Shown: one piece after another, positions 37,001-59,598 of the stretch
How positions within the stretch are numbered: position 1 is the stretch's first letter
Layout of the letters: every line of letters starts with the position of its first letter
DNA from: a virus
Lineage: Duplodnaviria; Caudoviricetes
IMG/VR virus record: IMGVR_UViG_3300037808_002146
Length of the DNA: 64,000 nucleotides
Strand: one strand, 5' to 3'
The notes under the pieces: generated by a model
Told to the model about the DNA's origin: nothing
Databases searched by the model: none
The model's input: only the letters and a program-made list of their open reading frames with translations
Made by a program: the position numbers and the translations under genes

Positions 37001-39028
37001 ACCGGCTGGCTTATCTCCTAAAGTCGTACGGTGGGCGTTATTAGTACCAGACACATTGATTATCGTTTTGTCTGAAGCTGGTGTCGAGCTAGCAGACGCC
37101 ATAGCAACAGGCATACCATTTATATATATAGATGCTGTCCCGTTGTATGCTGGGCCATTGTAAGTTATACAAATATGTGTCCATTGAGCGGCAGGGAATC
37201 TCTCGGCGCTGCTATTAGCAACAGTGAACACGGGTTTTTCAGTTTCTACTGTATAGGCTGTGCTACTTGAAAAGTTTCTAGTAAATTTAATCTTGCCGCT
37301 ATCAGGTATGCTTATTAGATAGTTATCTTGCTGCGATGAAAAAATAACGTGATCTTCTGTATGGCCTTGATTTTCCACTGGCTGTATCCAGCAAGAGAAT
37401 GTACTTTTGCCACCAGAAGATGCGCCGGTAAGACCGGCCCATTGGTCTGGAGTACCCAGGTATAACCTTTGGCTGGCATCTTTAGAAGTATCAAGAGCGT
37501 TTCTATACAATCCGTTTACTAATTGAGTAGTAAATGTATTCGCATCATCCGGAGCATCTTGAAACGCAAATGTTACCGAAGCTGAACCTGAGCTGACTGG
37601 AGTTGCGTTAACAAAATTGCCAACCCAAACCTTTGAAGATGTTATTATGTCTAAGCTGCCGGATGCATACGCTTTTTCGTAACTCGAGCCTGTAGTGAAG
37701 CAGTTGAATTTATTATTTAAATCGTACCCAGCATTAGGCACAAAGGTGACGCTGCCAGTGGTAAAGGTAACTGTAGCTTCGCTATCTACTTTGAAGATTT
37801 TTCTAGTTGGAGAACTTTTAAAATCAGCCAAAGAAATAGAGAAATCAGCTTTCTGTCCATCAGTTAATTTGAAAGTTCCATCAGAATTAATATAGTCTTC
37901 CAGAAATGACAAAGTTAATGAAGATTTTTTAGCTCTTTCCTGGAAGAACAGGGATGAATAATTTCTAGTAACGTCAGAAGAACCAACTTGAGGAACTGTT
38001 AAAGACAAAACAGAACCAGATATAATATTTCGACTGGCTTTTATATGGCTGCCTACAGAAATCTCCGCAACATTGGGAGAGCTTCCTTGCAAAGATAAGG
38101 ATCTAGGGTTATATCTAGTCAATATTTTAGAGCTATAATTTTCTGGCCTATAAGAAAAATAATAATTCGTAAAGAAACTCTTGTCTCCTATTTCCATCTT
38201 TCTTGATTTAAATGGAGAATTACTCACTAGAAAAGATTTAAAATCTATTGATGTATTTTCGGTATATTTTCTCCGAGTAAACGAAGTGACTGAGATGTTT
38301 GTAATATTGTTAGTTATTTCTTCATTGCCACTGAATCCACCAACAGTCTGTGTGAGAGATAATGTTTGTGGGGTATTAGCTGCAGATGGCGCCGAGCCAA
38401 CGATTATCTTCCCGTTATGCCCATTCGCATGCTCAATGGCAGCTTTTAGTAAACCAAGAAACTCAGCTTGATCGATGCCGGGAGCCAAGGGTGCTCCTAA
38501 ATTAAAACCAATTGCTATGCCTACAGCACCTAGCGTTAGCGAAGCTGTTTTGCCACTATCGAGTGTAGCTCCAGAAGTAACAATACCTAAATTAGCAACG
38601 TGGCCTGATCCCGCAGAACCATTAGCGGTATTTGAAATAAAATAATCTACAATTGTTCCATCTGTACTTGTTAACGTTATTTTTTGGCTAGCCGTCATGC
38701 CATGAATTAAAGAGCCATTAGTTACAGTTAGTATAGCTGTTGATCTAGTCGAAGCACCGATTGATTGCCTAGGAAATTCCCCGTCAGATCCGCTGGCGTT
38801 CGTCATTATTTCATTCGTTAAACCTTCGATTTTTTCAAAACGTTCGTTAAAAAATATTATGTCATTTAAGCCATCGGCTTCTAGATATCGATTTGCTAAA
38901 ACATCGTCAGTCATTCTATCAAAGACGAAATTAGCTATTACACTTTTATTAACATTTATTCGACCGCTTTTGTGCTGGACGTCTGTTAATAAATCTGGTA
39001 CAATTAATTTTTTTCTGCTATCAAACAT
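25013..39028 (-). CDS. 4671-aa giant virion (baseplate/adsorption) protein with three LamG domains, many plug-in modules and an FCCH-like barrel
   Basis: Uninterrupted 14-kb ORF. LamG motifs include FSCWIQP...WTHICITYNG...IYING...FWNKILTAGEI and FSAWINK...WVHVAVTYD...IYVNG...FNGEITEVAIWNSLLSDSEV. Confidence 0.8.
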   Translation of the reverse strand: MFDSRKKLIVPDLLTDVQHKSGRINVNKSVIANFVFDRMTDDVLANRYLEADGLNDIIFFNERFEKIEGLTNEIMTNASGSDGEFPRQSIGASTRSTAILTVTNGSLIHGMTASQKITLTSTDGTIVDYFISNTANGSAGSGHVANLGIVTSGATLDSGKTASLTLGAVGIAIGFNLGAPLAPGIDQAEFLGLLKAAIEHANGHNGKIIVGSAPSAANTPQTLSLTQTVGGFSGNEEITNNITNISVTSFTRRKYTENTSIDFKSFLVSNSPFKSRKMEIGDKSFFTNYYFSYRPENYSSKILTRYNPRSLSLQGSSPNVAEISVGSHIKASRNIISGSVLSLTVPQVGSSDVTRNYSSLFFQERAKKSSLTLSFLEDYINSDGTFKLTDGQKADFSISLADFKSSPTRKIFKVDSEATVTFTTGSVTFVPNAGYDLNNKFNCFTTGSSYEKAYASGSLDIITSSKVWVGNFVNATPVSSGSASVTFAFQDAPDDANTFTTQLVNGLYRNALDTSKDASQRLYLGTPDQWAGLTGASSGGKSTFSCWIQPVENQGHTEDHVIFSSQQDNYLISIPDSGKIKFTRNFSSSTAYTVETEKPVFTVANSSAERFPAAQWTHICITYNGPAYNGTASIYINGMPVAMASASSTPASDKTIINVSGTNNAHRTTLGDKPAGSRRLYSQFADLGFWNKILTAGEIYDLYSRPLASYRANSNLQLHINLGKNIKKTGALAITPSYTNVSAFENVTSKNAIGNHQYTAYKFAGDTDSVNIGTAAQWDATIGDNTGASSTEKMSFSAWINKTADGGGNLGRIFDFGQSDIFLYSTGTEELAFSSRLNNAHAEWRTGPSSFGLNQWVHVAVTYDASDTLNNDPVIYVNGQRVASSHLGSSQAKHATYSGIATEAGYIGNRHTHDRAFNGEITEVAIWNSLLSDSEVFAIYFATRNHSASSLKEVAINLSKAINNDSTINISATNPNLSLRNPTVKIEQNESLIQSVSTLTSSYPEKPSNSQSSALILYSSKDRRDKKCALFSNSETATTLFLEKIISDGKILTVKDFNDISVNFTFKTDGTADNHVATNSIINIQNLSTKLAIRDKVKAAINANVSSGNSGTLTGISLNSVENEDIRMDARPKQKFTIKCPDATESDQKSIVITDTTGFSYRLFFRKTASAAAPAGSIAVTYANSADSSAVATALESVIENLPASNRTGANAMSSGAAFSASVTSEQVTVLSNAFGLCEIPTAYDLKTKFIIVSIHDGSEKAGAITATGTAISDSFISFNSNSYSFPTPQYNVPATGQKILENSFDGVGIVGPGDPRINNVVVRYTNNSNFVDFFDNFKTAISHPQAAGHIVSGKQVIGSSIVGPTLEKKFRNSTLKESKTILRLRNSDSVYPNTNTGKGIITFKSGSIDLTTKVPTLTIMPFSRGHVNAGAMTRNSKGLVSLGKKTIITRVYNNSSSGTGTIFTVSGTTSSRWQLLSIDGNLEFRIRPNGSSAAGDYWKATIDRSALAKDKWYTLFITFDESTFNVANSKNMFALYDSENHGGLLSSTSFSINNSAPSGDQSAKLTLGGSPRLFIGYGNTSTGLATNYGNSDPGTNPADSASFYNNFNIAELSILSSQLVITEMAKIAESHLTLRSKSGFRNQLPKKLLQEKYQESKNLEANFKPFKEDSSTTQAYSSKDVVFPSNLDAGTTGSISFKFTNSPADNSGFSLRLPNGKDFQVIFDTSSTVADGFSLDSLTSPIKDANHISAPLASLTRFKCGLSGASTITSKVDRIKTFINATNRYSGIPVKASRVAFDTIRIEMLDAGSSTPEYNSSAKIVIFNNTFDPSNVAASSVLQIANGTTTVNYTATAAADDHADADKIGITTNRSVTDAVDEFVAKINAVSGFGITAIDQGNYNGDLTRASMLLVPDSGKDLIILENPAGNKEFGTSSTFCQIIPASTSLALVSSSPASNITILDNTLSSQAFGDSSFDDFSLTPRKDSIIAGFTQDTIKATIKCDVSKLNELVEASSVTRDYVEDNLSNRFFPPRGGLIRRLVNVQFLSRGRKDTEIPLRPAIEFSIGGKKYCARVDSLLNPSNSNKYNIGVKEVTSSNQLAMSLANSINDAVVFDNLPITVSFSNDVVTLTVDDKNIIPSRTIISGQGVSSESVFETVGYNTTRNPEISERSRESLVVKKSSLVSSPFLDDGKNDIEDNFFSMGSYLSGSAGSFASATRDRVRIEIDINPVSKTTLGFTTGSGNTLTSGFAAGNYNPIGYFDFASKKWESISPTFSGKIETKRDAAGAGQSRDDAIKDAVSIFQKSAPIAFGGTYGFSLHRKNTTSAAFTEITHVSGSNYNDSHFTTPSLRANQSIRITSTDGTEIDYVMHTLTGADSKSAGVALTTSMNNQWIGPNAPLYRRSEQVAKDGAYAIGPLELADNFKSLLMKLKAAIATAHAGKIICSNVLPDLLESWGTVTFLQTNDSPLVTIPITGNFKIKVSKGFDKAYASSDILYFYFEINGSPNKSHYISVNVSSISGTGPSGHGDVVTVTRNNSNAKRYTTLLDTVTVSSAMLLYCGHVDILDDSHVSLKLTQAVLGAAGNTRIHNGINGFRIPGHVRSTFSLKFSQNPSPGDELTVFGNNEINKTYGFVNTPVGFSYGSDPISFEDDPSSATLSAGFQIVGGNAAMTLKQATACAVNLGSGNDLGSGTKHVISLGGFDGSGNRGEIRISDKIPYGCTITIEFWATREDIIGGTFDASTSDTTDDLVLEYCSTSNFSTTVYTVNKRFEKSINNGGAYVSTTDSGAGRINGGDLPADDDNTSNTATLTKFRINVTDMPVGGSYLRVRKLVSAIAGDSIIIYNFKYTLTEGSFGSPVPIRSSLSDTIIALNTELGKNPNIQHSSPVGSDVLEFRPYGDRVAIYDHGVYTTTSNVEITESKGFSNSANDSWNGKYTSFVGGILTEENDPNKGSEYSKLHYAELPLRGRPVSNFGFPFSDTFKPTDGQKLDLSSYLDGPFLLEKFEIICSSSIRDEVQEGMGRLLPESAIDLPDSNYGQSNSNSTSFSKQKEVYDDKSAFGGYFGLYDDRFRNLEAQRIYDRYYPWTSTGVIWSALSNSSSNSYYLVGTGSAYHRLRGKSTFTKEKIKKEGAYHRVGGNVYAREGQVNDYINSTTGKTNTVEGSAWWRCDTFFLLREKQCVDTTFEAAIPKAIKSSGLETTSTVVGGKMYFGFHEDSKLIINIFGTDYQTDPANWPEIKDAATGNISWHEYITGEARDQSPLGTIASTLVITTTPKWVEIVSHAPVINPAVTSVIDGVKYEVINDAGENLNAGFNAVSTSYDVGDIITCTSTGTVSGTTNTKLREVNPKRIRIYIASSVTGTSSPILQNLGSFTEAQKRDGSIRYAIDLAWTNWTTYPVTYLIAAFIYEIIGAASAAGYLSGITMKPPAGTDATMELSINNAVSDDFDGGVLNTSASIAFNSGSRYSSHYRPAGAGGSWKLSGKIKYFTDDLGTVPVEFSNTPSGATPESLVYEGASIERPVTINGVTSGFNMTTQSCQITSTTRELISYAQVAYHGYANQNSDSVSGTGFNDGSMAHYYFVNDPAYMFYRGTDHTSAVSGSNKQTMEHPHQTRFGSFESTGSNGFNLLENGLGRELNIKIGTQAHLNPHLDLSHTTTVSGNEVRGLKFSIPKFIPSAGHATKRNVDIVGDDGLTLVVTDTDDTTATKSPTFLSQIRFENNEINEKYRQKFTHLTSSYNLHDGVLRIKAVCKSTPKLDTYFSYRLAVLDQYNNPSSQTLPKFVSVSPQGAFLGGFDHDGVGGTRALRAVTGDEPSGINFKINQMPFYLDDFDRMDPLKQSFDSTFADSISTGKNFEVGNAYVLKPSDKITLGFQTAVPGFHSGFTSFANLGGGSTPPELDDQGNLQTVNTAQVFITGVTTAKPPVVTTATYHELRDGNQIQIKDVATGNAGTALNDVYFRVRVLSNRTFELYTDGDLANPVDFTAAIYSSGGYYYPPKYVRSRAIDTGKCIETTFAPYSNSKLVLYGSYLQNSVPKRPKHKSSFSTSGVVYEVIGQEDYDKFDLSLDSEFSGSMSSEIISKTSISFGKDSNNDIDLSKIDVAFGERTNDIGGSPKKLFATGSVERYTALSAGDDVDLVYWDSLPVNITPYFKKKHKTRKIIPVKFLTSGSNKPLITNHPIDDSGVALFIGSPQQGTTTFFNDTLTTLNSSFPGSQLLTYQTATINVGTANAINLMGAKTGAKVIFSTGSNPERDGIKFEITGISGTNINVSFISSGSFIESSGITPSTVANSNPCRVMVFSEFGDSLESTTQLPISAFEDRYFTEWRKRFIFEKTTRDSDGKEVNIFGSGGFDPADSKLLFRNDKEATFGLDLPPSTMPAGFSKFSPVLNIFQSPNYGSGELLLTSGSGAPVTYDISKADQKTHLLAALANVKSKAGVFSARYDAQTKNVYIASKSYYPSLYTNCVNQVNDSPYRQAAAILFGFGKEVNNNLETINLGSLSGTSAIPFGNVDDSRTSTLKLIPRHTRQTLIHPAGVKYGMMNYDMLRPKVIFSRSKFGNFCDLIEGRKSGVFANLSSIEYSEVGPDRRVPTVEVSFYDASMALIKSGEDKLKFLFSQNLDRYQRSRVPFFDTPNPNLHESALGGRVRRKADIVNNQVSVFNSDGNDVFDDFN

Positions 39029-42000
39029 ATCTTAAACCGCTAAAAACTATTGAATCTGTCCCCGGGTGGGGGGAAGAATAATCATATCCAGCTTTTCTTC
39101 TAAAGTTTTCGCCACCCAAACTCTCGTTGCCGGCAACTCTCGTAGCTACAATATTGCTATTCATCTCTTGTAAAGTCAACACTAGAATATCCATCTCATT
39201 CGTTTCCGGATTGTTACCATTTAAGGGATTAGTTCTAAAAATCACTTCTTCTGTATCAATGTAAGGCTGAATCCTAGAATCATTTTTAAAAATAACACCG
39301 GGAACCCTAGAGTAAAAAACGTTATCTCGCTCTGCTGTTTCGGCTGGGTCAGCAAAGTTTACGCCTAACTCTTGGTATCCTTTCATATAGTCGGAAATGC
39401 CCGGGCAGTTATCGAAAAAAGCAACGTTTTTAGATTTTTCAAATGTTATTTTGTTGCTTATTTCGTAAGATTCTTTTCTAATCGATGAATATGCGTATTC
39501 GCCGCCTAACTCACCGGATAAACCCTTTATAGATTTCTCGGTAATAACACGCCCGAGCATTAAGTCTCTTATCCCTAGCGGCTCTATAACACCATCATGC
39601 TCAAACCCTAAAGAGCTTCCCAGGTTATTTACTTGAATTGGAAATCTTACGCTAGAATCAGACTTTACAAAAAAAACAGGATCCATGTTTAAAGTTCTAT
39701 TGTATCCATCTAAGTGCAGCTTAGGACCATTAAGAGAAAGATCTTCATAGAATCTTAAATCGCTAGTCCTTTGACCAAAACCAAAACTTCTCACTTCTAC
39801 ATCATGGTTAGGTTTGAGATAATATGAATTTTGATCAGCCCCGTCTCTCATTTCTACAGTTATAACTGGGTTGGAAAAATCTTCTAAAGTGTATGCATTT
39901 TGAGCGTTGATATTTGGACCAATTTGATAAAAGTTTCTCTGGTTGTCCAAAGCATTCGTCGGTATATAGGGAGTCCCATTATTAACGGTATTTTGAAGCT
40001 TTACGCAATTTTTTGATATGTAATTGTTAGCATTAATAAAACCTATGATGGTAAAAATAGAAAAACCATTCTTAGTAATTGCGTTATTGCCTATAGTTCC
40101 AGGAACTCTTTGTTTAAGGTGCAAGTATTGTGTTGATGGAGAATTAGGATCCATTGGAAACGCGCTGATTACATGATTATCAAGACCTGAATTGTGTCCA
40201 TTCACGGTGTTCATAGCATTGGCTAGCTCGTTTAAAACGTCTCTTTTCGAAAAGTTAGATCTTATATTGACGGCAATTGTTCCTATTGCAGCGTTTGATG
40301 AAGGGACAACTAGACCGGGAGCATACTTCGAACCTTCTATTAGTTTTTCTCCCGTAGGTACTGCTTTACTGCCACCGCGGCCTCCATGAACAATAGTATA
40401 GGTTTTTTGATTACCAGAAGATGACTTTATTGTAATCCTATCCGTTAGCGGGGTGGTGCCATGAGGATCACTCCCACTGGTTACTGCAATGCGCGCATAT
40501 GCATTTTTTGTCGAAGGTGTTAAATCAATATCGTCATTATCCTTGGCCAATAATATAGCATCGAAAAATCGATCTTTAAAATCTTGTAAAGAGGTAACTC
40601 CCCTGATGCCTATTTGATATTGTACGGAATTAGCACCATCTTGCGTAATTCTATAACTTCCATATTCTGCCCTGTTTGGGATTAATTGTATTAGTTTTTT
40701 GCTATTTGTCTCTCTATCATATATTCTAAATACCCTATTTTCTTGCATAAATGAGCGATAATCATTAGAGAAAGTTATATACAATTGGCTTTTATCGGTT
40801 GCGACCTTGGTTTCTGAAAATGCTTTAAAATAAGTGAGCCGAGTTTTATTTTCAGTTACTTTTATGGAATACTCTTCGTTATCAGCCGAAATTGTCTCAA
40901 GCTCAAGTTTGAGGTGGAAATTTTTATTTAGCCGCTCAAGGCTTGTTCGTAATCTTTCGATAAAAAGCTTTTTTCTAAAGGAGACTATTTTTGATGAATC
41001 GTTCCCGTACTCTCCAGAGAATGACTTTATAAGAACTTCTATTTCACTATTATTTTTTCGAATTATTCTAACGGGGTCTGTATTATCGTCTCCATTAATT
41101 ATATAAAAGTCAATCTCAGCATTAGATTTAGAATCCAAGAGGGGATTTTTTGAGATACGCGTGTTTAAAATGTCGTACCTAATATGAAAAAACCTGATTT
41201 TGAGATTGGAACTGGGTCGATAGAACGATAAATCTGGAAAAGCTAATAATAAAGTAGCGCTCCTAGAGCTAGCGTCTGCTTTTTTCCCTTCGGTCAAAAG
41301 ATCATGGAACATAAAGTCATTTACAGCTTTAGTAGTTAATTTCCAATTTTCTAGTCCAAAGATCGTAGTTTCAGGAGACGAATTATTTAATCCTTCTTGC
41401 TTTATTTTTTTGCCAATACCGGATTCAACTGATAAACTTCCAACTTCTTGAGTTAGCAAAAGAGTATCATCTTGAATAATTCTAGAAGTAACGCCAGATG
41501 TTGAGGCATTATAATTTATGATATTATTTAAATCAAAAGTTATTTTTTTGATTTTTTGAATACTGGAATTTATAACATCGTCATATGGAACTGCGTTTGG
41601 TTCACCAACATAGTATCCCGGAGCGTCCATCAACCCAAGAGCGAAGGCATTATTATCTCGAGGGTGACGTAAATCCCCGGTGTTTAAAGTCCTCAATAGA
41701 CCATTTTTCCCAGTTGAAAAACTTGGTAAAGTTATAAAACTGCTAGATATCAAAGTACCCGAGTTTGCTAAGTTTCCAATTTCGCCTGATTTATTTTGAG
41801 TAATAGCAATTACATTAGTATTAAGAGAAGCCGATATATCTAAATCCTTGTCTGAAGATACTTGGCTTAAAGCTAAGTGAATCTTAGACGCAACTCCATT
41901 TCTCACCGTTGTATCGCTAGTATTATCGATCCCAGCTAAGCTTACATCCCAGCTAGTACTTGAATTTCTAGTGGTTCTAGAAATGTCAAACTTAAGAGTA

Positions 42001-44681
42001 ACAGTTAAGAAATTTCCTTTTGAATCAGCTAAGACGAAATTTTTATTATGTAACGCTCCACTCGCTCCGGCATCATATATAGTTTTAGAAACATTATTAG
42101 TAATGGTAAGATTTGTTTTCGCTTTATAGCTACTAACAACCCTTATTTTTAAATCGCTTCCAGAACCTTTAAAAGACTCTATGTGCAAGTTATATAAACC
42201 ATCACCAGGATCTTTTGGTATATCTTTAATTCTCAAAACCAAAGAGGGTTTCTTGTCAGATTTATCGTTGAGAACAACTTTCGGATTAGCTAATGGTTGA
42301 AATCTTGCTCGAGTTTGATTTCTTAGTTGCTCGATAGTTCTTAAGTTGATGCCTTGTTCAAAACCTATAAGCTTAACTTCTGATGAATCTCTTATTGAAG
42401 CCATTTAAAATCTCCTTATTACGCCTGATCTTTGAGATACCAGTATTTTAGAGCGTAATTTCGAACGCTCATCTTCTCCCTTATATATCTCTTGATGTCC
42501 ATATGCTACCTTATATCTCTCTAACGCGTGCGATTCTATTATTAAATTGATACCTAAGAAATTGTTATTCCTAGGGACTAGTCGTTCTATCATATCAGAA
42601 AAAGCGTCATCTAACCATCTAAATAAATCGAAAAAATTTCTATAATTGACTTTCTCAGTTAGCCTATTAAAATATAAATTCCTCATATTTCTTAAATCCG
42701 GATATTCCTGCGCGAACACTAACTCTGGTTTTCCTAGTGCATCGTCCAAAGCATCGATAGCCGAGAATATATTCATTATATCTTCGTCTAGTCCTCTTTG
42801 CAAGTGTATTTGAACTTCGAACCTATTATCATTTGCTTTCTTTTCAAAAGGTAAAACTTCTGTTACGGGTGCTATTTTTGAATTGTAGAGTTTAATATTT
42901 GATCCGTCAGAAAAGCCAGCTATTTTAATTTTATCGCTGTCTAAATACTCATCAAAAAACGGTGATATTATCGTATAGTCAAAACGTTCATTGTGAACAA
43001 TTTTATTGTTCACTTCAAACCCAAACCCAAGAGCACCAGACAAACTAGTATAAGTTCCATTAGATATTTTTTCTTGATTATCCAGGGTGAAAGTTTGACT
43101 AAAATCTAAAAAGTTTAATTTCCCAAAAGGGTTTGATTTCATCTCTGGCTGATCGGTGGATATATTTAACCTTAGTTTTTGAAAAGAACCAGACATGCTA
43201 GTACTAAATGTATTGCTAACTAACGGGTTATCAACACCTACCGACTTGAAGTTACGAGCGTGTTCTATAGATTCTGTTACTGTTAAATACTTCGACCAAA
43301 ACCTAATATGACCAACTTTACCATCAAAGTATGATGTTCTTGCATGATTTATAACAGCTGAATCATTTATAAACATGCTATTTCCAGCTGGATCTACCAT
43401 TGATTGAGAGCCTATTAGAATTTGAGGTGGATTATAGTTTTCCGACTCGTGCTTCAAATTTTGAAACATATTATCGTTAGCTAACCCTTCATCAAAAAAT
43501 GATCCAGTAACAATAAATGTAGATAACTTATCAAAATCTAAAGAAGCGGCTCTGATAAAATAAGAAGAACTAACCGGTTGGTTCATATCATCATTTCTTC
43601 TTCGGCCATAAGTTATATGCCATTTTTTGCCATCCAAACAGTTTGCGCCAGTTAAAATTGTTTTTAAAACCGGAGCTGTATTGGTTTGGCTATTCCTAAC
43701 ATAAAGTGTTAACTCATTGCCAAATGGTGACAATACTAAGTTAGATAATACTGCATGTTTATCTTTAAAATTTTGGCCTGGAGTGACTCCTTGGGTTACT
43801 ATCCTGGACAAGCTTCTTCTACTCTCATTAGATAAATTACTAGGAAACTGATAAATACCTTCTACTGTCCAAGAACCTGAAGTAAATAGTCCATCGTTTG
43901 GAGAAGCGGATATACCGGCGTATGAGTATCCCGGGGTGTTTGCTCTAACCATGCCTTTACCACTCGAAAAGCCAGAAAGAGTTAAGTTAGAATCAGATGG
44001 TGCCATGGAGATTGTATGATTACCTAGGTTACGTCTGTTGAATCCTTTAGTCGTTATCTTTATTGTGTCTAAATTTGTACCAGCTGCGCTATTTTTAGTT
44101 TCTACATTAAATGAGTTTGGAAAAGCAGTAGTAATCGCAGTGCTAATATCTGTTACTAGCTGCATTGTTGTTTTGTTAGAACCACCAGCCTGCCTATTTA
44201 TTACAATAGAGCCTCCAGAGAAATTAGTCGGAGTCAAATTAGAAATATTGTTAGTGATACTCTTGTTACCAATATTGCCGGCTGTTGTTTGAGTAATCGT
44301 TATAGACTGATTTCCGTCAGCAGCAGACGGAGCAGCTGATACTGTTATTTTTCCATCGTGACCATTTGCGTGTTCAATAGCTGCCTTTAATAAACCAAGA
44401 AACTCAGCTTGATCAATTCCAGCTGCTAGAGCTGCTCCTAAATTGAAGCCAACCGCAATTGCCTTATGAGCTCCTGGAGTAAGGGTTGCTCTAATATTTC
44501 CAGTTGTTTTTAACAAAGCATTATTAGCTATAATACCTAAGTGCGCTACCCCTCCATCGTTAGTATCTGAAACGAAATAGTCGGCTATAGTTCCTGCTGC
44601 TGATTGGATTGTTATTTTCTGGCCGGCTGTCATACCATGGATCGCGTCGCCATCGGTAACAGTTAGGGTTGAAGTGGCTTT
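38279..44681 (-). repeat. Closely related copies of a ~155-aa module in two different genes (38279-38743 and 44211-44681)
   Basis: 21-aa identical core GIDQAEFLGLLKAAIEHANGH; 24 identical nt at 38450-38473 and 44391-44414. Confidence 0.95.
39021..42404 (-). CDS. 1127-aa putative baseplate-region structural protein containing plug-in modules
   Basis: SD AAGGAG; overlaps the giant ORF by 8 nt. Module-like segments at ~41715-42120, ~40515-40740 and ~40040-40500. Confidence 0.7.
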   Translation of the reverse strand: MASIRDSSEVKLIGFEQGINLRTIEQLRNQTRARFQPLANPKVVLNDKSDKKPSLVLRIKDIPKDPGDGLYNLHIESFKGSGSDLKIRVVSSYKAKTNLTITNNVSKTIYDAGASGALHNKNFVLADSKGNFLTVTLKFDISRTTRNSSTSWDVSLAGIDNTSDTTVRNGVASKIHLALSQVSSDKDLDISASLNTNVIAITQNKSGEIGNLANSGTLISSSFITLPSFSTGKNGLLRTLNTGDLRHPRDNNAFALGLMDAPGYYVGEPNAVPYDDVINSSIQKIKKITFDLNNIINYNASTSGVTSRIIQDDTLLLTQEVGSLSVESGIGKKIKQEGLNNSSPETTIFGLENWKLTTKAVNDFMFHDLLTEGKKADASSRSATLLLAFPDLSFYRPSSNLKIRFFHIRYDILNTRISKNPLLDSKSNAEIDFYIINGDDNTDPVRIIRKNNSEIEVLIKSFSGEYGNDSSKIVSFRKKLFIERLRTSLERLNKNFHLKLELETISADNEEYSIKVTENKTRLTYFKAFSETKVATDKSQLYITFSNDYRSFMQENRVFRIYDRETNSKKLIQLIPNRAEYGSYRITQDGANSVQYQIGIRGVTSLQDFKDRFFDAILLAKDNDDIDLTPSTKNAYARIAVTSGSDPHGTTPLTDRITIKSSSGNQKTYTIVHGGRGGSKAVPTGEKLIEGSKYAPGLVVPSSNAAIGTIAVNIRSNFSKRDVLNELANAMNTVNGHNSGLDNHVISAFPMDPNSPSTQYLHLKQRVPGTIGNNAITKNGFSIFTIIGFINANNYISKNCVKLQNTVNNGTPYIPTNALDNQRNFYQIGPNINAQNAYTLEDFSNPVITVEMRDGADQNSYYLKPNHDVEVRSFGFGQRTSDLRFYEDLSLNGPKLHLDGYNRTLNMDPVFFVKSDSSVRFPIQVNNLGSSLGFEHDGVIEPLGIRDLMLGRVITEKSIKGLSGELGGEYAYSSIRKESYEISNKITFEKSKNVAFFDNCPGISDYMKGYQELGVNFADPAETAERDNVFYSRVPGVIFKNDSRIQPYIDTEEVIFRTNPLNGNNPETNEMDILVLTLQEMNSNIVATRVAGNESLGGENFRRKAGYDYSSPHPGTDSIVFSGLRYV

Positions 44682-46829
44682 ATCACTGGCGCTTGAGTTA
44701 GCAAACTTAAAAATTTCTGTATTGTTGTAAGCGTCTTGAATTGTTACTTTAGTGTTTATAGATGGCAAAGCAGTTTGATTTGTAGAATGGAGCTTTATGG
44801 TTCCTGTTGCTAAAATTCCGCTGTTTACGCCACCCGAAATCTCTGGATATCCTGGCTCAATCCTGCTACCGGATAGCGGAGCAGAAAGTAATGTAGGCCT
44901 ACCGATTATAGTCCCGTCTGGTCGAGGTGTTTCCTTTATCGTACTCAAACTTCCAGAAAAATTTAAAAGAGTTGACATTTCTGTTATTTTTTGTCTAGAA
45001 GTACCTAACCTAAATTCATCCACCCCATTATATTCTACTAACCTGAATAGTCTATCTGGTTCTATGCCGGCGGATCGAAATATAGATTCAATAGCATATT
45101 TAGTTCCTTTAGATTTGAATATATGACTTATATTTTTTAATACTCTTCTCCATATTAAATTTTGTACTTCTGACAGGCTTTTTTCATATATGCTATATTC
45201 TAACCCTAGATTTTCTTTACCTAAAAATTGTTCTAACGCAACATCACCAAACACTTTTGGCAATTCAAACCCATAGTATTTCGCTAAGTCTGGTAAAAAT
45301 GCGTCAGCTACGCCTTCAACTCCTAGATAGTCGGGATTCAAAAACTGAGATACTTGATCAATGTACATTTTATACTGGTCTAACTCTTCAGCCATATAAT
45401 AAAGGAACATTGAAATCAATTGAGCATGGCCGAGTCTTCCCGATTTTGGCAAATTAGAATAAGAACTATAAGATTCTACGATATCTCCGTCTACAGTAGA
45501 GCCTTCTAAATAAGCTCCTTCTTGCAGATAATGGTTTGGTACCAGCTTGGTAATCAAATTCGGATTATTCACATCATATAAAGTTGCTTTTTGTAAAAGT
45601 TTTGAGTTGAGGCTTATTACTTCTGGGGAGCTTGGAAAAAGTACAGGGTTATAATGAGAGTCTTCCAAAAACATTGGATTATCGACTTCATGGGGCAGTC
45701 TCATCGCTTCTTTGTAGTTAGATATTTGAGTGTGCAAACTATTGCCACTGTGATCTAAAGCTAGATTGTTGTTTGTATGTGATCCTGTTGGCTCATTAAA
45801 CTTAAAGTAAAGTTTTAAGCTATCATGAGCAAATATATTTCGGCGTGAATAGTAACTAACTTCGTCAAGATCTCTAATACCATGAAATAACCTGAATTCG
45901 TCTAGAGAGCCGCTGAATGTTGATGATTTATTGAATACGAGGTTGTTATTTCCAGCATCTAAGTTTTCTCCATCACCAATTTTTAATTTTTGATTTCCTG
46001 TGTTGATAATACCATAATCGAAAAAATCGCTAGTAGATAAAACTGTTGAACCTGAGAGAATTTTTAGTGTTTGTTGTTCTGTCCTATTATCATACTGAAA
46101 AGATAAGTTATGCCACTTTCCTTTTTTTATTGTGTAACTAGCACTAGCGTAATTATAGCTGCCACTCATAAGAGCAAAATTAACTTTGCAGTTTTTTGAC
46201 GATGCTGTTTGATTAAAAAAAACAGCATACCCAGAATTTTCGCCTGCCGTTGAATTTATACTATGAAACAAAAAGCTGTTTCCGTTAGATTCTTCAGGTA
46301 ATCTTAAACAGCACTCTATAGAAAAGGAGTTATTTCGAGGGTTAATATGAGATACGCCTTGTTCACCTTTTAATAGGGTTTGGCTATAATCGCCAGACTT
46401 ATCTTTTACCTCAATGTATTGACTACTAGAAGAATCAAAGGTCAAAAAACCTCTACTCTTTGGGAATTTATTAAACACATGTTTTTCGAGAGAAGATAAA
46501 TTGTCTTCAAATGTTTCGATTTCTTCTAATGTTCCATCAAAGGGATATTCGTTAATAATTTTATTAAAAGCGACATTTATCTTTGCTTCAGCAGATCCAA
46601 AAAAAGTATTATTTTGAAAAAGAGAATTATCAACCGGGAGCTGCTGAGTTGAAATTAATCCATTGCCAGCTTCCTTTCTTTTAAAACTAGATTCGCTAGT
46701 GTTAACGCTGGTTTTTGTTAATTTTTTTTGATTTTGATCTAAGAGTATCCCTGTTGTAGTTCTATACTTTCTGAGCATCTTCCTCGTAAAATACTTTACG
46801 TTATCGAATGTTCTTGTTCTTCTAGCCAT
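42405..46829 (-). CDS. 1474-aa baseplate wedge-like protein (T4 gp7 / P2 gpI-like segment) with two LamG domains
   Basis: FLPDLAKYYGFEL...IWRRVLKNISHIFKSKGTKYAIESIFRSAGI matches the gpI/gp7-type pattern. LamG motifs FSIECCLR...WHNLSFQYD...FSGSLDEFRLF and WTVEGIYQF...WHITYGR...FDGKVGHIRFW. Confidence 0.7.
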   Translation of the reverse strand: MARRTRTFDNVKYFTRKMLRKYRTTTGILLDQNQKKLTKTSVNTSESSFKRKEAGNGLISTQQLPVDNSLFQNNTFFGSAEAKINVAFNKIINEYPFDGTLEEIETFEDNLSSLEKHVFNKFPKSRGFLTFDSSSSQYIEVKDKSGDYSQTLLKGEQGVSHINPRNNSFSIECCLRLPEESNGNSFLFHSINSTAGENSGYAVFFNQTASSKNCKVNFALMSGSYNYASASYTIKKGKWHNLSFQYDNRTEQQTLKILSGSTVLSTSDFFDYGIINTGNQKLKIGDGENLDAGNNNLVFNKSSTFSGSLDEFRLFHGIRDLDEVSYYSRRNIFAHDSLKLYFKFNEPTGSHTNNNLALDHSGNSLHTQISNYKEAMRLPHEVDNPMFLEDSHYNPVLFPSSPEVISLNSKLLQKATLYDVNNPNLITKLVPNHYLQEGAYLEGSTVDGDIVESYSSYSNLPKSGRLGHAQLISMFLYYMAEELDQYKMYIDQVSQFLNPDYLGVEGVADAFLPDLAKYYGFELPKVFGDVALEQFLGKENLGLEYSIYEKSLSEVQNLIWRRVLKNISHIFKSKGTKYAIESIFRSAGIEPDRLFRLVEYNGVDEFRLGTSRQKITEMSTLLNFSGSLSTIKETPRPDGTIIGRPTLLSAPLSGSRIEPGYPEISGGVNSGILATGTIKLHSTNQTALPSINTKVTIQDAYNNTEIFKFANSSASDKATSTLTVTDGDAIHGMTAGQKITIQSAAGTIADYFVSDTNDGGVAHLGIIANNALLKTTGNIRATLTPGAHKAIAVGFNLGAALAAGIDQAEFLGLLKAAIEHANGHDGKITVSAAPSAADGNQSITITQTTAGNIGNKSITNNISNLTPTNFSGGSIVINRQAGGSNKTTMQLVTDISTAITTAFPNSFNVETKNSAAGTNLDTIKITTKGFNRRNLGNHTISMAPSDSNLTLSGFSSGKGMVRANTPGYSYAGISASPNDGLFTSGSWTVEGIYQFPSNLSNESRRSLSRIVTQGVTPGQNFKDKHAVLSNLVLSPFGNELTLYVRNSQTNTAPVLKTILTGANCLDGKKWHITYGRRRNDDMNQPVSSSYFIRAASLDFDKLSTFIVTGSFFDEGLANDNMFQNLKHESENYNPPQILIGSQSMVDPAGNSMFINDSAVINHARTSYFDGKVGHIRFWSKYLTVTESIEHARNFKSVGVDNPLVSNTFSTSMSGSFQKLRLNISTDQPEMKSNPFGKLNFLDFSQTFTLDNQEKISNGTYTSLSGALGFGFEVNNKIVHNERFDYTIISPFFDEYLDSDKIKIAGFSDGSNIKLYNSKIAPVTEVLPFEKKANDNRFEVQIHLQRGLDEDIMNIFSAIDALDDALGKPELVFAQEYPDLRNMRNLYFNRLTEKVNYRNFFDLFRWLDDAFSDMIERLVPRNNNFLGINLIIESHALERYKVAYGHQEIYKGEDERSKLRSKILVSQRSGVIRRF

Positions 46830-48727
46830 TATACTACCTTAAAAACAAAGGATTCGTTAAAATCGGTTATTTCGTCGTTTATAATACTGAAAAATTCTAT
46901 TTTATAAGAAAACCCAGTTAATAACGTCCCAGCTTTAATAGTCGCTGAATATTCGTCATCGTAGAAACTCATTTTCGTCGAAAAAGAAAAATCCCTATCA
47001 ATCAACTCTTTATTAGAAATTAATTCAGATATTCTATAATAGAGATTCCCATAGAAATAATCGGGGTCTTTCCTTAATTTGCTAGGAAGGTATTCTTTTC
47101 CGTTTATTGTAGCAGAGCATATTAGAGTTATATCTTCTTTCTCGGTATATTCTGGTTTTCTATTTTTCATTGCTAAAGAAATAGAAGATATATCAAAGTT
47201 AGAATAAGCATCATTATAAACTCTTGATTTTTTATTTAAAAAAGTAATTTCTCCATCAGAAGTTTGCCACTTTAATTCTACATCAAATCCAGAAGAATCA
47301 GCTTTTAGAGCTTTTTTAACATATGAATTATTTCCCGGGATAGTAAAACTAGCCTGATAAACTCCTGGTAATCTATTTCCGTTAGAAGATTTATCAACTT
47401 GGCTAAAACTAACAGAACTCGTAAAAGAACCAGAAACTATTTTTAAAATGCCGCAATTGTTACCCGTTAGTTGCGCGTTAGAATTATCAAAAAGATTAGA
47501 ATTAGTAAAGCCTTTTTTAACTTTAATGCATGCAGAAGATGCTTTATTAACAAATATCCTCCCGGTATCGTCAGATATAGAATCATCAAATACTATTCTC
47601 AATCTAGGCGTTATCAGTTTATTTTTAACGTGTCTCGAAGCGAATCGCTTTACGAAACGCGATTTGCTATCTGAGCTATACGAACCACTAAAGCCAATCC
47701 TGAAACCTTCACTGGGTATTAGTCCTTTCAAGCTAGCAGATACTGCATTTGTAATATCAAATATTAAATCCTGATTAGGATCATTGAGGTATGTAGAAGA
47801 TCCTAAGTCTACTTTCGTAGTACCGAAGCTAGCGCTTGTTATGATGTCAATATGTTTTGTTGAATGGCCACCTTTAAATTTGATTGTAGTCAATCTAGTT
47901 GCTGCATTTGCTAAAGGCACTGCTGTATTACCCGTTAACCCCGAAATATCCTGTGAAAGATTAACTACAGAACTAGCATCAGGATCTATTGCTGTAATTT
48001 TTAAATCATTATTAGTTTTAGATAATGCAATTGCTTGAAATATTTTTCCAGCAATATGCGATGTCGTCGTGGTTCCGTTTATACCAAAAGTGTAGTTATT
48101 CGAATCAACCTTAGCGGGCGTAGCCGATGCTGGGTTTGCTAGAAAACTTATTGTATTAGTAGTATCGCTCAAAGAGAATCCAACTGTATTATCCCAACCT
48201 CCAACCCCAGTGATTGTGATCGATGCTTGAGCGAAAGTATTATCATTCCCGCCGGCAGCAGCTGCGCCTTCTGACTTCCATGTGATCGGGCTAGATCCTA
48301 AGTAAGATGAAGTTAAATAATTAGCCGATCCTATATCGTCGAAATTACTAACATCAATCCCAAAACCCTCTTCGAAAGTTCTAGTAAGTGGATTGCAAAT
48401 TGCGTCAAAATTAAAAGGCTTTTGTAAACCAGAACTTACATCTTGCAATTCTAAATAAGCTTTGAAGTCGGATTTATTTCGAATATCTAAGATACTAGAA
48501 GTTAAATTTCCAAGCGTCGAATAATCAAATTTAATTAGTAGCGCAGATTTTTCAGATATATTAGATGTTACGTAATTGCCAGATTCAACTACGCCAGATT
48601 CTTCAAAGAGTTTGAAAAGATCTAAAGTAGCGCTGTGGCCTGTATTAGCATTTTTCGATCTATATTTGTTATCAATTATTTTGTCTGTTATATAACAATC
48701 TTTGCTAGCTGAAATTATTAATTGCAT
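46829..48727 (-). CDS. 632-aa structural protein, DNRLRE/CBM96-like N-terminal domain with an inserted module
   Basis: SKDCYI...ALLIKFD...KAYLEL...LIFDIT.AV...GFRI...FASR...PRLRIV pattern; coupled by TAATG overlaps on both sides. Confidence 0.55.
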   Translation of the reverse strand: MQLIISASKDCYITDKIIDNKYRSKNANTGHSATLDLFKLFEESGVVESGNYVTSNISEKSALLIKFDYSTLGNLTSSILDIRNKSDFKAYLELQDVSSGLQKPFNFDAICNPLTRTFEEGFGIDVSNFDDIGSANYLTSSYLGSSPITWKSEGAAAAGGNDNTFAQASITITGVGGWDNTVGFSLSDTTNTISFLANPASATPAKVDSNNYTFGINGTTTTSHIAGKIFQAIALSKTNNDLKITAIDPDASSVVNLSQDISGLTGNTAVPLANAATRLTTIKFKGGHSTKHIDIITSASFGTTKVDLGSSTYLNDPNQDLIFDITNAVSASLKGLIPSEGFRIGFSGSYSSDSKSRFVKRFASRHVKNKLITPRLRIVFDDSISDDTGRIFVNKASSACIKVKKGFTNSNLFDNSNAQLTGNNCGILKIVSGSFTSSVSFSQVDKSSNGNRLPGVYQASFTIPGNNSYVKKALKADSSGFDVELKWQTSDGEITFLNKKSRVYNDAYSNFDISSISLAMKNRKPEYTEKEDITLICSATINGKEYLPSKLRKDPDYFYGNLYYRISELISNKELIDRDFSFSTKMSFYDDEYSATIKAGTLLTGFSYKIEFFSIINDEITDFNESFVFKVV

Positions 48728-50640
48728 TATCTTACGCTCACTTTAATATCAAAATCCGGATATTTCATTTCAAAAATACCATTCTTTTTAGGGAATATAT
48801 AACCTTTTTCAATTATGATATCAAAAGGTTCGCTTAGGGAATAGCCATATGAATTTACTCCGTCGCTATGCACACCTACTTTGGAAACTATAGTAATACC
48901 AGAAGTTCTTCCTCCTGGGCTAGAAGAATCGTGTATCGAAGAAACTCCGTCTGAAGACATTACAGCATAGCTGATATCTCCCATTGCTAAAGGCTGATTT
49001 ATATGAAAATTAGATAGTTTGAGGAGTTTCCTTAAGTTTGTTATTATAGACTGAACTACTATGGATTTTTGAGCTCCTGGTGTTGCGATTACATTTACGT
49101 TTAAACCAAAGTTGTGAATTGCAGCATCCATTATTATATAGGAATCATTGATTAACCTAAAAGATTCTAAATAAGTCTTAAGGTTGAGCTTTAGATTATC
49201 TCCTGATACTTCTAGTGGCGAAGACGAAGATTGCATTGAACCAAATTTGATTAAGTTGCCCGATTGGCCGCGGCTTATTAAAGCTATTTCTACATGGCCA
49301 TTTGAGTCCGGGCTTTCTGAAACTGATGCTCTGTATATTCTCCCAAGGGGAGCTGGCAAAGAATATATTCGAGCTAATAAATCTTCTTTAGTTACAATTC
49401 TAGACTGTGAATTTCTAGCAATTGGGATTTGATCCCTAAATTCTTCTATCGATGGAGGAGGAGCACCACCAGAAGCTTTTTGTAGATTTCTTACGTCTAA
49501 ACTAGCCCTAGTCGAAACAGCTTCTTCATGACTTACGCCAGTGGGAAATGATAAATCTAAAAATTCTATTTGTCTTATAGAACCAACGCTTATGTTGTGA
49601 TTTAAGCCGCCGCCGTGTCTATATTTAATTGACAATGTAGTTTGTCTAGGAGCTACTCCTAAAGTATTCGTTTTTAGCAATGAATTTGGATCTAGAGAAA
49701 ACCTAGAAAAAACTTTTTTTCCATATAGCGGGACGCTTAAATCTCCTGGATCCGGAAGTATGTCATCATCATCAGCTGTAGCATCACCACCGCCAAACTG
49801 GAGCGTGGTAGATAATGTTTGAGGATCAAACAACTTAGTGAATCTATATGGAGCCGGGGTTACAGATATAGATTTTTGGATAGACTGGCGACTCACATCT
49901 TTATTATCTACGATAGTAAAAACATTGTCTTGTGCCAAGTTATCAACTTCATAATAAATATTTCCGTCAGAATCTGACACACTTTCTATTAAACTTACAT
50001 TTTGTTCTGATAACGTTATGTTTCTAAAAGGAGCAAAATTATCAGATATAGAAAATAGCTCTTCCCTAATTTCTCCAGAAACGCATAAACCACGTAAATT
50101 TATTATCTTTTTATTTCCTTGGTTTAAAGGAGCAGGATTTGATTTTTTCCAAATGTAATCTCTTTCTTCACTATTTTCTCTAAGGGAAAAATCAATATCT
50201 TCCATTAGATTAAAAGTCACTCCGTTCCCAGAGATCAACCTAGTTCCTTTTTTTATCTTAGGCAATGATAGCACTGAGACTTTATTTTCTTCGGAGATAG
50301 GTACTTCTATATAGAAAGAAACATAAACAGTCGATGGAGCAGCACCATGAGTTTCGACACCAGCTAAATTAATATGTTTTTTAATGTTTTCTATTTCTAC
50401 TGCGTCTGACCATCTTAGCTCATTAAACTGATGGTCTAGATAAAACGACATAGAGTCGCCGATATAAGAAATCATATCGACGAACATTCCGCCTAGTCCA
50501 GTTTCAGTAAAATCTTCTATATTATCCGGAAAAAAAGTCCTCGCATGTTGAATTAAGTTACTTTTAAAGCCATCAAAATCGCGAGCTAAATAAGACCTTT
50601 TTACAATTTTCTTTTGCCTATTTTTAATATCTTTTGCCAT
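48727..50640 (-). CDS. Baseplate wedge subunit (T4 gp6 / baseplate J-like)
   Basis: YLARDFDGFKSNL...DFTETGLGGMFVDMISYIGDSMSFYLDHQFNE N-terminus; FGGG; YRHGGG..HN; ASGGAPPPSIEEFR...QSRIVTKEDL. Confidence 0.88.
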   Translation of the reverse strand: MAKDIKNRQKKIVKRSYLARDFDGFKSNLIQHARTFFPDNIEDFTETGLGGMFVDMISYIGDSMSFYLDHQFNELRWSDAVEIENIKKHINLAGVETHGAAPSTVYVSFYIEVPISEENKVSVLSLPKIKKGTRLISGNGVTFNLMEDIDFSLRENSEERDYIWKKSNPAPLNQGNKKIINLRGLCVSGEIREELFSISDNFAPFRNITLSEQNVSLIESVSDSDGNIYYEVDNLAQDNVFTIVDNKDVSRQSIQKSISVTPAPYRFTKLFDPQTLSTTLQFGGGDATADDDDILPDPGDLSVPLYGKKVFSRFSLDPNSLLKTNTLGVAPRQTTLSIKYRHGGGLNHNISVGSIRQIEFLDLSFPTGVSHEEAVSTRASLDVRNLQKASGGAPPPSIEEFRDQIPIARNSQSRIVTKEDLLARIYSLPAPLGRIYRASVSESPDSNGHVEIALISRGQSGNLIKFGSMQSSSSPLEVSGDNLKLNLKTYLESFRLINDSYIIMDAAIHNFGLNVNVIATPGAQKSIVVQSIITNLRKLLKLSNFHINQPLAMGDISYAVMSSDGVSSIHDSSSPGGRTSGITIVSKVGVHSDGVNSYGYSLSEPFDIIIEKGYIFPKKNGIFEMKYPDFDIKVSVR

Positions 50641-51140
50641 TAACCTACCGCCCTTATTATTACTTCTATTGATTCATTGGAAACATTCAAACTAGGTATG
50701 GCATATAAGACCCTCACTCCAATATTAGCATGGTGTTCATTGTTATCACGATCTGTAAATGCTTCAAAGCTAGTCAACGAAATAAAAGGCATATAAACGC
50801 TAATAGCTTGATTAATCCTACTTATCGCTTCACTCTCTATATCATCGGATGCTAACTCAAATGCTAACTCTTCTAAATTTGCGCCGAAGTTATAGTTACC
50901 TAACCGCTCTCCCTTATTAGTCATAAGTAGATTTTTAAAGTTATCTTTAATTTGATCTTTTAAGTTTTTGTGCATCTTAAATAAACCGTCTCTATCCGAG
51001 CCAAGCTCTAATGGAGTTTTAATACCAATTAATTTTTGAAATTGGAAATCTCTCTTAGCTTTATCTACAACTGACTTTAATTGGCCGGCTGATTTGAATT
51101 TTATTTCACTTCTATTTTTTGTTCTATCTCTAGATGCCAT
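50640..51140 (-). CDS. Baseplate gp25/GPW-like protein
   Basis: DQIKDNFKNLLMTNKGERLGNYNFGANLEELAFE...INQAISVYMPFISL; adjacent to the gp6-like gene. Confidence 0.92.
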   Translation of the reverse strand: MASRDRTKNRSEIKFKSAGQLKSVVDKAKRDFQFQKLIGIKTPLELGSDRDGLFKMHKNLKDQIKDNFKNLLMTNKGERLGNYNFGANLEELAFELASDDIESEAISRINQAISVYMPFISLTSFEAFTDRDNNEHHANIGVRVLYAIPSLNVSNESIEVIIRAVG

Positions 51141-59583: not shown

Positions 59584-59587
59584 TAAT

Positions 59588-59594: not shown

Positions 59595-59598
59595 AACT

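What the first reader, a model, noticed from the sequence alone, without database searches (positions are those of the whole stretch)
43960..44810. Russian-doll nesting: the module is inserted inside another copy of itself
An outer copy starts ATGTIKL...KVTIQDAYNNTEIFKFANSS. A complete inner copy follows (KATSTLTVTDG...GNKSITNNISNLTPTNFSGG, 44211-44681). The outer copy then resumes with SIVINRQAGG...LVTDISTAITTAF...IKITTKGFNRRNLGNHTIS. The insertion point is the module's own variable loop. This implies its N- and C-termini lie close together and the loop accepts further copies, so the domain could be extended recursively into a stalk.
Basis: partly seen in the sequence, partly recalled or inferred. 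Interest (0 to 1): 0.78.

Follow-up and report, generated by a model that had tools for sequence, protein, structure and literature searches.

The report
Phage baseplate domain nested inside itself
A large baseplate-region protein of an uncultured marine phage carries a small surface domain that has a second domain of the same family inserted into one of its loops. Related phages show the same domain empty, singly filled or multiply filled, so this is a natural, insertion-tolerant building block rather than a curiosity of one sequence.

Summary
Confirmed. The stretch lies in a 1474-aa ORF (42405-46829, minus strand), downstream of gp25-like and gp6-like baseplate wedge genes. Residues 674-716 plus 874-957 form an "outer" domain of about 128 aa. 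Residues 717-873 (nt 44211-44681) are a complete "inner" module of a family found in at least 158 protein clusters, with copies in two neighbouring genes.

- **Orthologues without the inner copy exist.** Four syntenic orthologues have the outer domain uninterrupted, with the flanks joined in frame. On the scaffold tree these are basal, so the insertion is derived.
- **Other orthologues carry more.** They hold one or two modules at this site and a LamG-containing insert at a second site.
- **Outer and inner types are related.** Profile-profile score is 24.4 against a shuffle null of 3.1±2.1. An N-half HMM hits the outer half at E=1.6e-5.
- **Same fold.** AlphaFold gives both the same strand/helix order. 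Both models hit the same solved domains at the same residue ranges: tail-sheath outer domain, FliD D2/D3 and the T7 nozzle domain.

The inner copy is 64% identical to a copy in the neighbouring giant gene and about 33% to the outer domain. It was therefore imported from a paralogue, not duplicated in place. A solved precedent exists (Geovibrio flagellin D4/D5). Function is inferred. The scan has not noted this on other DNA.

The parts
42405..46829 (-). Host gene: 1474-aa LamG-containing protein (P0001) in the baseplate wedge gene block
   Evidence: Open frame. Pfam LamG PF13385 at aa 165-325. 141 homologues at E<=1e-3, of which the best 120 were retrieved; these are 954-2266 aa long. Conserved gene order next to gp25-like and gp6-like genes.
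44682..44810 (-). Outer domain, N-terminal part (aa 674-716; strands b1-b3)
   Evidence: Coordinates. N-half HMM hit at E=1.6e-5. AF2 strands at model residues 21-27, 40-44 and 50-57. Aligns to uninterrupted orthologues.
44211..44681 (-). Inner module (aa 717-873), complete copy inserted in the b3-b4 loop of the outer domain
   Evidence: AF2 pLDDT is 93-98 over most of the inner module. Absent from orthologues P0010, P0013, P0014 and P0015.
43959..44210 (-). Outer domain, C-terminal part (aa 874-957; b4, helix, b5-b8)
   Evidence: The outer-type HMM splits into aa 674-716 and aa 874 onward. AF2 gives strand 223-225, helix 234-248 and strands 253-258, 266-273, 285-288 and 296-301.
38276..38743 (-). 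Closest paralogous module in the same genome (giant 4671-aa ORF, aa 96-251)
   Evidence: phmmer E=1e-46. 64% amino-acid identity to the inner copy. One 24-nt identical run in an otherwise roughly 60% identical DNA alignment.
40038..40502 (-). Paralogous module in the 1127-aa ORF (aa 635-789)
   Evidence: Iterated HMM E=5.9e-26.
31595..31996 (-). Divergent module in the giant ORF (aa 2345-2478)
   Evidence: Iterated HMM E=1.9e-14.
47867..48157 (-). Probable divergent module in the 632-aa ORF (aa 191-287)
   Evidence: Iterated HMM E=7e-4. C-half HMM E=3.7e-4. Weak evidence.
48727..50640 (-). gp6-like baseplate wedge gene (context)
   Evidence: PHROG 219 and PHROG 6. 28% identical to the annotated baseplate wedge protein of Flavobacterium phage vB_FspM_immuto.
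50640..51140 (-). gp25-like baseplate wedge gene (context)
   Evidence: PHROG 261 and PHROG 43. The syntenic gene in L001 carries PF04965.

Best explanation
Residues 674-957 of a baseplate-block virion protein are a nested pair of domains from one family.

The family is a compact alpha/beta domain with the element order b1-b2-b3-[variable loop]-b4-helix-b5-b6-b7-b8. Its fold is the one used as the exposed outer or insertion domain of contractile tail sheaths, T7-like nozzle proteins, FliD D2/D3 and flagellin outer domains. The outer copy sits in a hypervariable junction of the scaffold protein, between aa 660 and 970. A second, longer-looped copy has been recombined into its b3-b4 loop.

Shown here:
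- The insertion is derived, because uninterrupted orthologues are basal on the scaffold tree.
- The donor was a paralogous module of the type found in the neighbouring giant gene, not the outer copy itself.
- The same platform accepts cargo at three positions in sister phages: after b3, after b4 and before b8. The cargo includes further modules and a LamG lectin-type domain.
- N-N-C-C self-nests recur in unrelated proteins of the family.

Inferred:
- The fold's N- and C-termini are adjacent, so it can be dropped into loops. Its distal loop tolerates insertions, so the two properties together allow recursive outward growth.
- The resulting array decorates the baseplate periphery and presents variable, probably glycan-binding, surfaces.
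- It is diversified by cassette exchange among the adjacent baseplate and fibre genes.
For: - **Anatomy and coordinates:**
- **Inner module family:** (158 clusters).
- **Hypervariable junction:** among 120 orthologues most have a 10-40 aa linker, and others have inserts of 80 to 1097 aa.
- **Uninterrupted outer domain:** found in P0010, P0013, P0014 and P0015. The joined flanks of P0001, P0003, P0004, P0005, P0006, P0007, P0008, P0011 and P0012 align with them.
- **Synteny of P0015:**
- **Scaffold tree:** the outer-domain clade has 100% support. P0013 is basal, P0010/P0014/P0015 are uninterrupted, and P0001/P0003/P0004 are nested.
- **Homology of outer and inner types:** hhalign score 24.4 against a null of 3.1±2.1. 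The N-half HMM hits aa 674-715 at E=1.6e-5. The iterated HMM hits P0010 at E=9e-7. Compact modules bridge the two types: the outer HMM reaches P0048 at E=1.3e-7 and the inner-family HMM reaches P0044 at E=6.5e-12.
- **Structure:** the nest model has mean pLDDT 75.6, about 93-98 over most of the inner domain and 53-74 in the outer, with identical element order. The uninterrupted domain has pLDDT 87-94 over the core.
- **Shared structural neighbours at the same target residues:**

| Target | Inner copy | Outer-type domain |
|---|---|---|

  The same holds for T4 gp11, Mu sheath and T7 gp12.
- **LamG cargo at the second site:**
- **N-N-C-C nests in at least 10 other family proteins:** for example P0186, whose halves are 53-59% identical.
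Against: - In the nest model the outer domain has only moderate confidence (pLDDT 53-74), and its alignment depth was 3-8 sequences.
- The C-half of the outer domain is not found by the inner-family C-half HMM.
- hhalign's own 'probability' is low (27% global, 5% local) despite the shuffle result.
- Virion location, exposure and any binding function are inferred from gene neighbourhood and from what the fold does elsewhere. PHROGs gives no family for the protein.
Confidence: 0.82

Rival explanations
1. Heterologous insertion. The outer domain is an unrelated domain that merely shares a common alpha/beta arrangement, and a mobile module has been inserted into it. On this reading it is ordinary domain insertion, not nesting within the same family.
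Against: The collinear, end-to-end profile alignment lies 10 standard deviations above the column-shuffle null. HMM links are significant for the N-half and through the compact modules. Motifs are shared at equivalent positions (A-T-x-T-I strand, I-T-I-x-D, G-N-x-x-I, F-x-G-G). The lists of structural neighbours are identical, at identical target residues.
Confidence: 0.1
2. Tandem duplication with swapped elements. On this reading two side-by-side copies exchange strands, so the apparent 'outer' halves do not belong together.
For: Tandem N-C-N-C arrangements are common in the family: 16 proteins have exactly that pattern and others have longer arrays.
Against: The order here is N-N-C-C, not N-C-N-C. 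The inner unit occurs elsewhere as a contiguous stand-alone module. The two outer halves occur joined and uninterrupted in four orthologues, and one of them (P0013) was folded and gave a confident single domain.
Confidence: 0.03
3. Assembly or gene-calling artefact: a chimeric contig or a frame-fused repeat.
For: The source is metagenomic and no whole genome is held. Repeated modules can mislead assemblers.
Against: The same nest occurs in independent assemblies at 86% and 71% overall identity (P0003, P0004), with substitutions throughout. The frame stays open for 1474 codons. The tree is coherent.
Confidence: 0.02

Closest known systems
Geovibrio thiophilus flagellin outer domains D4/D5 (PDB 9au6; PMC11532411)
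   Different: It is a flagellin, not a phage protein, and there is no detectable sequence relationship. There it is a single duplication. Here there is a comparative series (empty, single, multiple, with LamG cargo), and the inner copy was imported from a paralogue rather than duplicated in place.
Outer (surface) domain of contractile tail sheath proteins, e.g. cyanophage A-1(L) gp9 residues ~92-185 (8kee), PhiTE (9cb9), Mu (9khy)
   Different: In sheaths the nested domains have different folds. There is no sequence similarity, the host protein differs, and self-nesting has not been described there.
FliD (HAP2) D2/D3 and T7-like nozzle gp12 insertion domain (5fhy, 5h5v, 6r21, 8i4m)
'Evolved' Dit and other siphophage baseplate proteins with carbohydrate-binding modules inserted in loops (own knowledge, not checked here)
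   Same: These are phage baseplate proteins diversified by in-loop insertion of binding modules.
   Different: Their inserted modules are CBMs of a different fold from the host domain, and no recursion has been described.

Membership tests
Nested self-insertion of a domain (as in G. thiophilus flagellin D4/D5) | Sequence order N(outer)-N(inner)-C(inner)-C(outer) | tested here: met
   N-half HMM hits lie at aa 674-715 and 718-760. The C-half hit lies at aa 800-873. The outer C part is identified by the outer-type HMM.
Nested self-insertion of a domain (as in G. thiophilus flagellin D4/D5) | Outer and inner domains share one fold or family | tested here: met
   hhalign scores 24.4 against a null of 3.1±2.1. 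The secondary-structure order is identical. The PDB neighbours are the same, at the same residues. This is a transitive comparison, not a direct superposition.
Nested self-insertion of a domain (as in G. thiophilus flagellin D4/D5) | The host domain exists uninterrupted in relatives | tested here: met
   P0010, P0013, P0014 and P0015 carry it uninterrupted. Synteny is confirmed. These orthologues are basal on the tree.
Nested self-insertion of a domain (as in G. thiophilus flagellin D4/D5) | The inner copy arose by duplication of the outer copy itself | tested here: not met
   The inner copy is 64% identical to the giant-ORF copy and about 33% to the outer halves. It was imported from a paralogue. 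True in-place duplicates do occur in other family proteins, for example P0186 at 53-59%.
Sheath-outer-domain / FliD-D2-like alpha/beta insertion fold | Structural match to solved members covering most of the domain | tested here: met
Sheath-outer-domain / FliD-D2-like alpha/beta insertion fold | Sequence-level homology to those families | tested here: not met
   No PDB sequence match at E<=1 for the protein, and only chance-level hits for the module profile. There is no Pfam family other than LamG.
Pfam PF13385 Laminin_G_3 (host protein N-terminal domain) | HMM score above the gathering threshold | tested here: met
   36.6 bits against a cut-off of 27.6, at aa 165-325.
T4 gp7-type baseplate wedge protein | Profile or structural match to gp7 | tested here: inconclusive
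   There is no PHROG hit for P0001 and no PDB sequence hit. The scaffold outside aa 655-975 was not folded. Only the gene position downstream of the gp25-like and gp6-like genes (one 632-aa ORF lies between gp6-like and P0001) suggests this.

The most novel reading that the evidence does not exclude
This module family may be a naturally recursive, insertion-competent scaffold. On this reading a lineage of uncultured marine myoviruses grows and re-tips its baseplate periphery by repeatedly dropping modules (and lectin domains) into the loops of earlier modules, by cassette exchange between adjacent virion genes. That would give branched domain trees three or four levels deep, for example outer domain > LamG > module > 35-aa mini-insert in P0007/P0008. 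It would be a general and previously undescribed mode of receptor-binding diversification. It would also be a ready-made chassis for displaying foreign domains.
Probability: 0.45. Interest if true: 0.68.

Novelty: new variant of a known kind. Interest (0 to 1): 0.58.

Why it matters
Nested domain insertion is known, and one solved case of a domain inserted into its own copy exists in a flagellin. Three things are new here.

- **An unannotated sequence family.** It has no Pfam or PHROG model and is seen in at least 158 protein clusters, all from metagenomic or viral sources.
- **A natural step-by-step series.** One syntenic phage gene shows no domain, an empty domain, one insert, two inserts, and a lectin at a second site. 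The series gives the direction of evolution.
- **Recurrence.** The same N-N-C-C nesting appears in at least ten unrelated proteins of the family.

Together these identify a small fold that tolerates both being inserted and receiving insertions. That is relevant to how phages diversify host-recognition hardware, and it is useful for protein engineers who need permissive insertion sites. It does not overturn any principle, and the function remains inferred.

Tried and rejected
- **Alignments A2 and A3:** splitting orthologues into fragments made MAFFT mix outer and inner columns. Both were discarded. A4 was checked column by column before folding.
- **Foldseek against the PDB with the two-domain model:** no match at E<=0.001. 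VIA-align and single-domain searches were needed.
- **PHROGs for P0001 and its two large neighbours:** no family.
- **PDB sequence searches:** nothing.
- **megablast against phage genomes:** no match. tblastn gave only one 27% hit, to Microcystis phage Mel-JY01.
- **Region-restricted search to deepen the outer-type alignment:** only 3 proteins found.
- **Whole genome:** not held.
- **First-round half-HMMs:** too narrow to find divergent copies. Iteration was needed.
- **The 'pedestal for two LamG domains' in the giant ORF:** LamG/Pentaxin hits at aa 593-704 and 790-936 are confirmed. The flanking module halves are at best weak (C-half E=0.48, N-half not detected).
- **Recent copying between the inner copy and the giant copy:** only 64% amino-acid identity, with one 24-nt identical run. 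It is not recent overall.
- **Tandem-swap and assembly-artefact readings:** rejected, as set out under the rival explanations.
Full report
**Where it lies.** The flagged stretch is inside a 1474-codon open frame on the minus strand, 42405-46829 (P0001). On that strand the gene order is:
- a gp25-like gene (50640-51140; PHROG 261/43)
- a gp6-like wedge gene (48727-50640; PHROG 219/6)
- a 632-aa ORF
- P0001
- an 1127-aa ORF
- a 4671-aa ORF

P0001 has a LamG domain at aa 165-325 and no PHROG family. No close phage genome is known. The gp6-like protein is 28% identical to those of Flavobacterium phage vB_FspM_immuto, Microcystis phage Mel-JY01 and an uncultured 484-kb phage. Orthologues come from marine and other metagenomes on contigs of up to 470 kb.

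| Part | Residues | Window nt |
|---|---|---|
| Outer N part | aa 674-716 | 44682-44810 |
| Inner copy | aa 717-873 | 44211-44681 |
| Outer C part | aa 874 to about 957 | 43959-44210 |

The inner copy is a bona fide module. It matches aa 96-251 of the giant ORF (E=1e-46; 64% identity) and aa 635-789 of the 1127-aa ORF. In a library of 1.84 billion representative proteins it matches 158 clusters at E<=1e-3. Many of those carry several copies, in proteins of up to 5220 aa. Neither Pfam nor any PDB sequence matches it.

**Comparative series.** I anchored the conserved scaffold on either side (P0001 aa 660 and 970) in 120 homologues. The junction is hypervariable:
- Most orthologues have only a 10-40 aa linker.
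- A few have unrelated inserts of 80-125 aa, or one compact module of about 115 aa (P0044, P0046, P0048, P0071).
- The 14 closest relatives have the outer-type domain.

In P0010, P0013, P0014 and P0015 that domain is uninterrupted. The sequence runs straight from the '...F-x-F' strand through a short loop into the 'I-x-V-N' strand, exactly where P0001 has its 157-aa inner copy. P0015 is a positional orthologue: gp25 (PF04965) - 652 aa - 633 aa - P0015 - 1182 aa - 3611-aa giant. P0003 and P0004 (86% and 71% identical overall) share P0001's single nest, so it is not an assembly artefact.

The other relatives carry more:
- P0005 and P0006 have a compact module at the same site.
- P0007 and P0008 have one module after b3 and a second after b4.
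- P0012 also has two modules in this region, placed by HMM hits only.
- P0005-P0008, P0011 and P0012 have a second large insert just before the last strand. It contains a LamG domain, confirmed by Pfam in P0005, P0008 and P0011.
- In P0005-P0008 that second insert also contains one or two more modules. From the sequence pattern these appear to sit between the first LamG strand and the LamG core.
- In P0007 and P0008 some of these modules carry a further segment of about 35 aa in their own variable loop.

A maximum-likelihood tree of the scaffold, with the insert region excluded, gives these results:
- The outer-domain clade has 100% support.
- P0013 (uninterrupted) is sister to the rest.
- P0010, P0014 and P0015 (uninterrupted) group with P0011.
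- P0001, P0003 and P0004 are sister to P0005-P0008.

The empty domain is therefore the ancestral state and the nest is derived.

**Are outer and inner the same kind of domain?**
- *Sequence.* hhalign of 13 outer-type domains against 100 inner-type modules gives one collinear alignment over 123 columns. Its only long gap is at the inner type's variable loop, which is also the insertion point in P0001. The score of 24.4 compares with 3.1±2.1 for 200 column shuffles (maximum 9.7) and 3.2 for the reversed profile.
- *Iterated HMMs.* After six iterations the inner-family HMM reaches the N half of outer-type domains (P0010 E=9e-7, P0013 E=1.5e-4). An N-half HMM hits P0001 aa 674-715 at E=1.6e-5.
- *Bridging by compact modules.* These link the two types. 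The outer HMM reaches P0048 at E=1.3e-7. The inner-family HMM reaches P0044 at E=6.5e-12.
- *Structure of the nest.* AlphaFold2 on aa 655-975, with an alignment checked column by column (A4), gives mean pLDDT 75.6. It is about 93-98 over most of the inner domain and 53-74 in the outer. Both show the order b1-b2-b3-(loop or insert)-b4-helix-b5-b6-b7-b8.
- *Structure of the empty domain.* The uninterrupted domain of P0013 folds with pLDDT 87-94 over its core and has the same order.
- *Shared neighbours.* Coordinates are not returned, so I compared the two through their neighbours in an exhaustive PDB scan. Both models hit the same chains at the same residues:

|---|---|---|---|
| A-1(L) sheath 8kee_A | 91-185 | 7.9 | 9.8 |
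| PhiTE sheath 9cb9_A | 84-179 | 6.8 | 9.3 |
| P-SCSP1u nozzle 8i4m_A | 148-240 | 7.1 | 7.8 |
| FliD 5fhy_B | 103-232 (inner); 81-252 (outer-type) | 6.8 | 8.0 |

**Origin of the inner copy.** It is 64% identical to the giant gene's N-terminal copy and about 33% to the outer halves. At DNA level the two copies are about 60% identical, with a single 24-nt identical run. The inner copy is richer in G+C (42.5%) than its flanks (36%), as is the giant's copy (41.9%). So the inner copy came from a paralogous module and not from duplication of its host domain. It entered before P0001, P0003 and P0004 diverged.

Literal self-duplication nests do exist elsewhere in the family. A scan with half-HMMs finds N-N-C-C order in at least ten other proteins. 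In P0186 the two N halves are 53% identical and the two C halves 59%. Tandem N-C-N-C arrays are also common.

**Mechanism.**
- *Shown:* a nested pair of same-family domains, insertion at the family's variable loop, a derived state, multiple permissive sites, lectin cargo in relatives, and recurrence of nesting.
- *Inferred:* because this fold is used everywhere as an insertion domain (sheath, nozzle, FliD, flagellin), its termini must be adjacent. Combined with a permissive distal loop, that allows recursive outward growth. The location in the wedge gene block and the LamG cargo suggest an exposed baseplate decoration that presents variable, probably glycan-binding, surfaces. Exchange of cassettes among the adjacent large virion genes would supply the inserts. 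A rigid 'stalk' is not demonstrated. What the orthologues show is branching.

**Relation to known things.**
- Nested but non-homologous domains are classical in tail sheaths (own knowledge).
- I found no paper describing this module family or self-nesting in phage baseplate proteins. The library is not exhaustive.

**Verdict.** The observation and its interpretation hold. This is a new, unannotated family of a known fold, showing a known but rare architectural trick. It has an unusually complete evolutionary series and evidence of recursion. I score interest as moderate to high for protein-evolution and phage-adsorption specialists. Function is not established.

Noticed in passing
window 44682 / 44210 junctions; orthologues P0005-P0008, P0011, P0012: The outer-type domain has at least three insertion sites in relatives: after b3, after b4 and before the last strand. 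The last site carries a LamG domain (Pfam-confirmed in P0005, P0008 and P0011). In P0005-P0008 further modules apparently lie between the first LamG strand and the LamG core.
   Followed up: partly
P0007 aa ~1150-1200 and P0008 aa ~770-810, ~1245-1290 (not in the window): A mini-segment of about 35 aa (pattern G-R-x-Y-R-I ... G-x-T-x-N-W ... G-A-S-S-N-T-P ... G-E-V/I-F-T-A) sits inside the variable loop of some modules, adding a further level of nesting. It has no Pfam match.
   Followed up: no
window ~43920-44850 (P0001 aa 660-970) across 120 orthologues: This scaffold junction is a hot spot. Most orthologues have a 10-40 aa linker. Others carry unrelated inserts of about 80 aa (P0047, P0052, P0060) or about 125 aa (P0096, P0098) that are not this module.
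   Followed up: partly
window ~44397-44420 and ~38456-38479: There is a 24-nt identical run, encoding the start of the helix motif, between the inner copy and the giant ORF's N-terminal copy. The rest of the DNA alignment is about 60% identical, so this may be a short gene-conversion tract.
   Followed up: partly
window 25013-39028 (-): This 4671-aa ORF has two LamG/Pentaxin-type regions (aa 593-704 and 790-936). It has clear modules at aa 96-251 and aa 2345-2478, a partial C-half match at aa 2566-2595, and several weaker ones. The syntenic gene in L001 is 3611 aa, so its module content also varies between relatives.
   Followed up: partly
window 47867-48157 (-): The 632-aa ORF between the gp6-like gene and P0001 has a probable divergent module (HMM E=4e-4 to 7e-4).
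   Followed up: partly
window 55251-63698 (-): Upstream of the baseplate block lie two glycosyltransferase genes, an exonuclease-like gene and two nucleotide-sugar epimerase genes (PHROG 2170, 69/1218 and 540). This is a sugar-modification cluster next to the virion genes.
   Followed up: no
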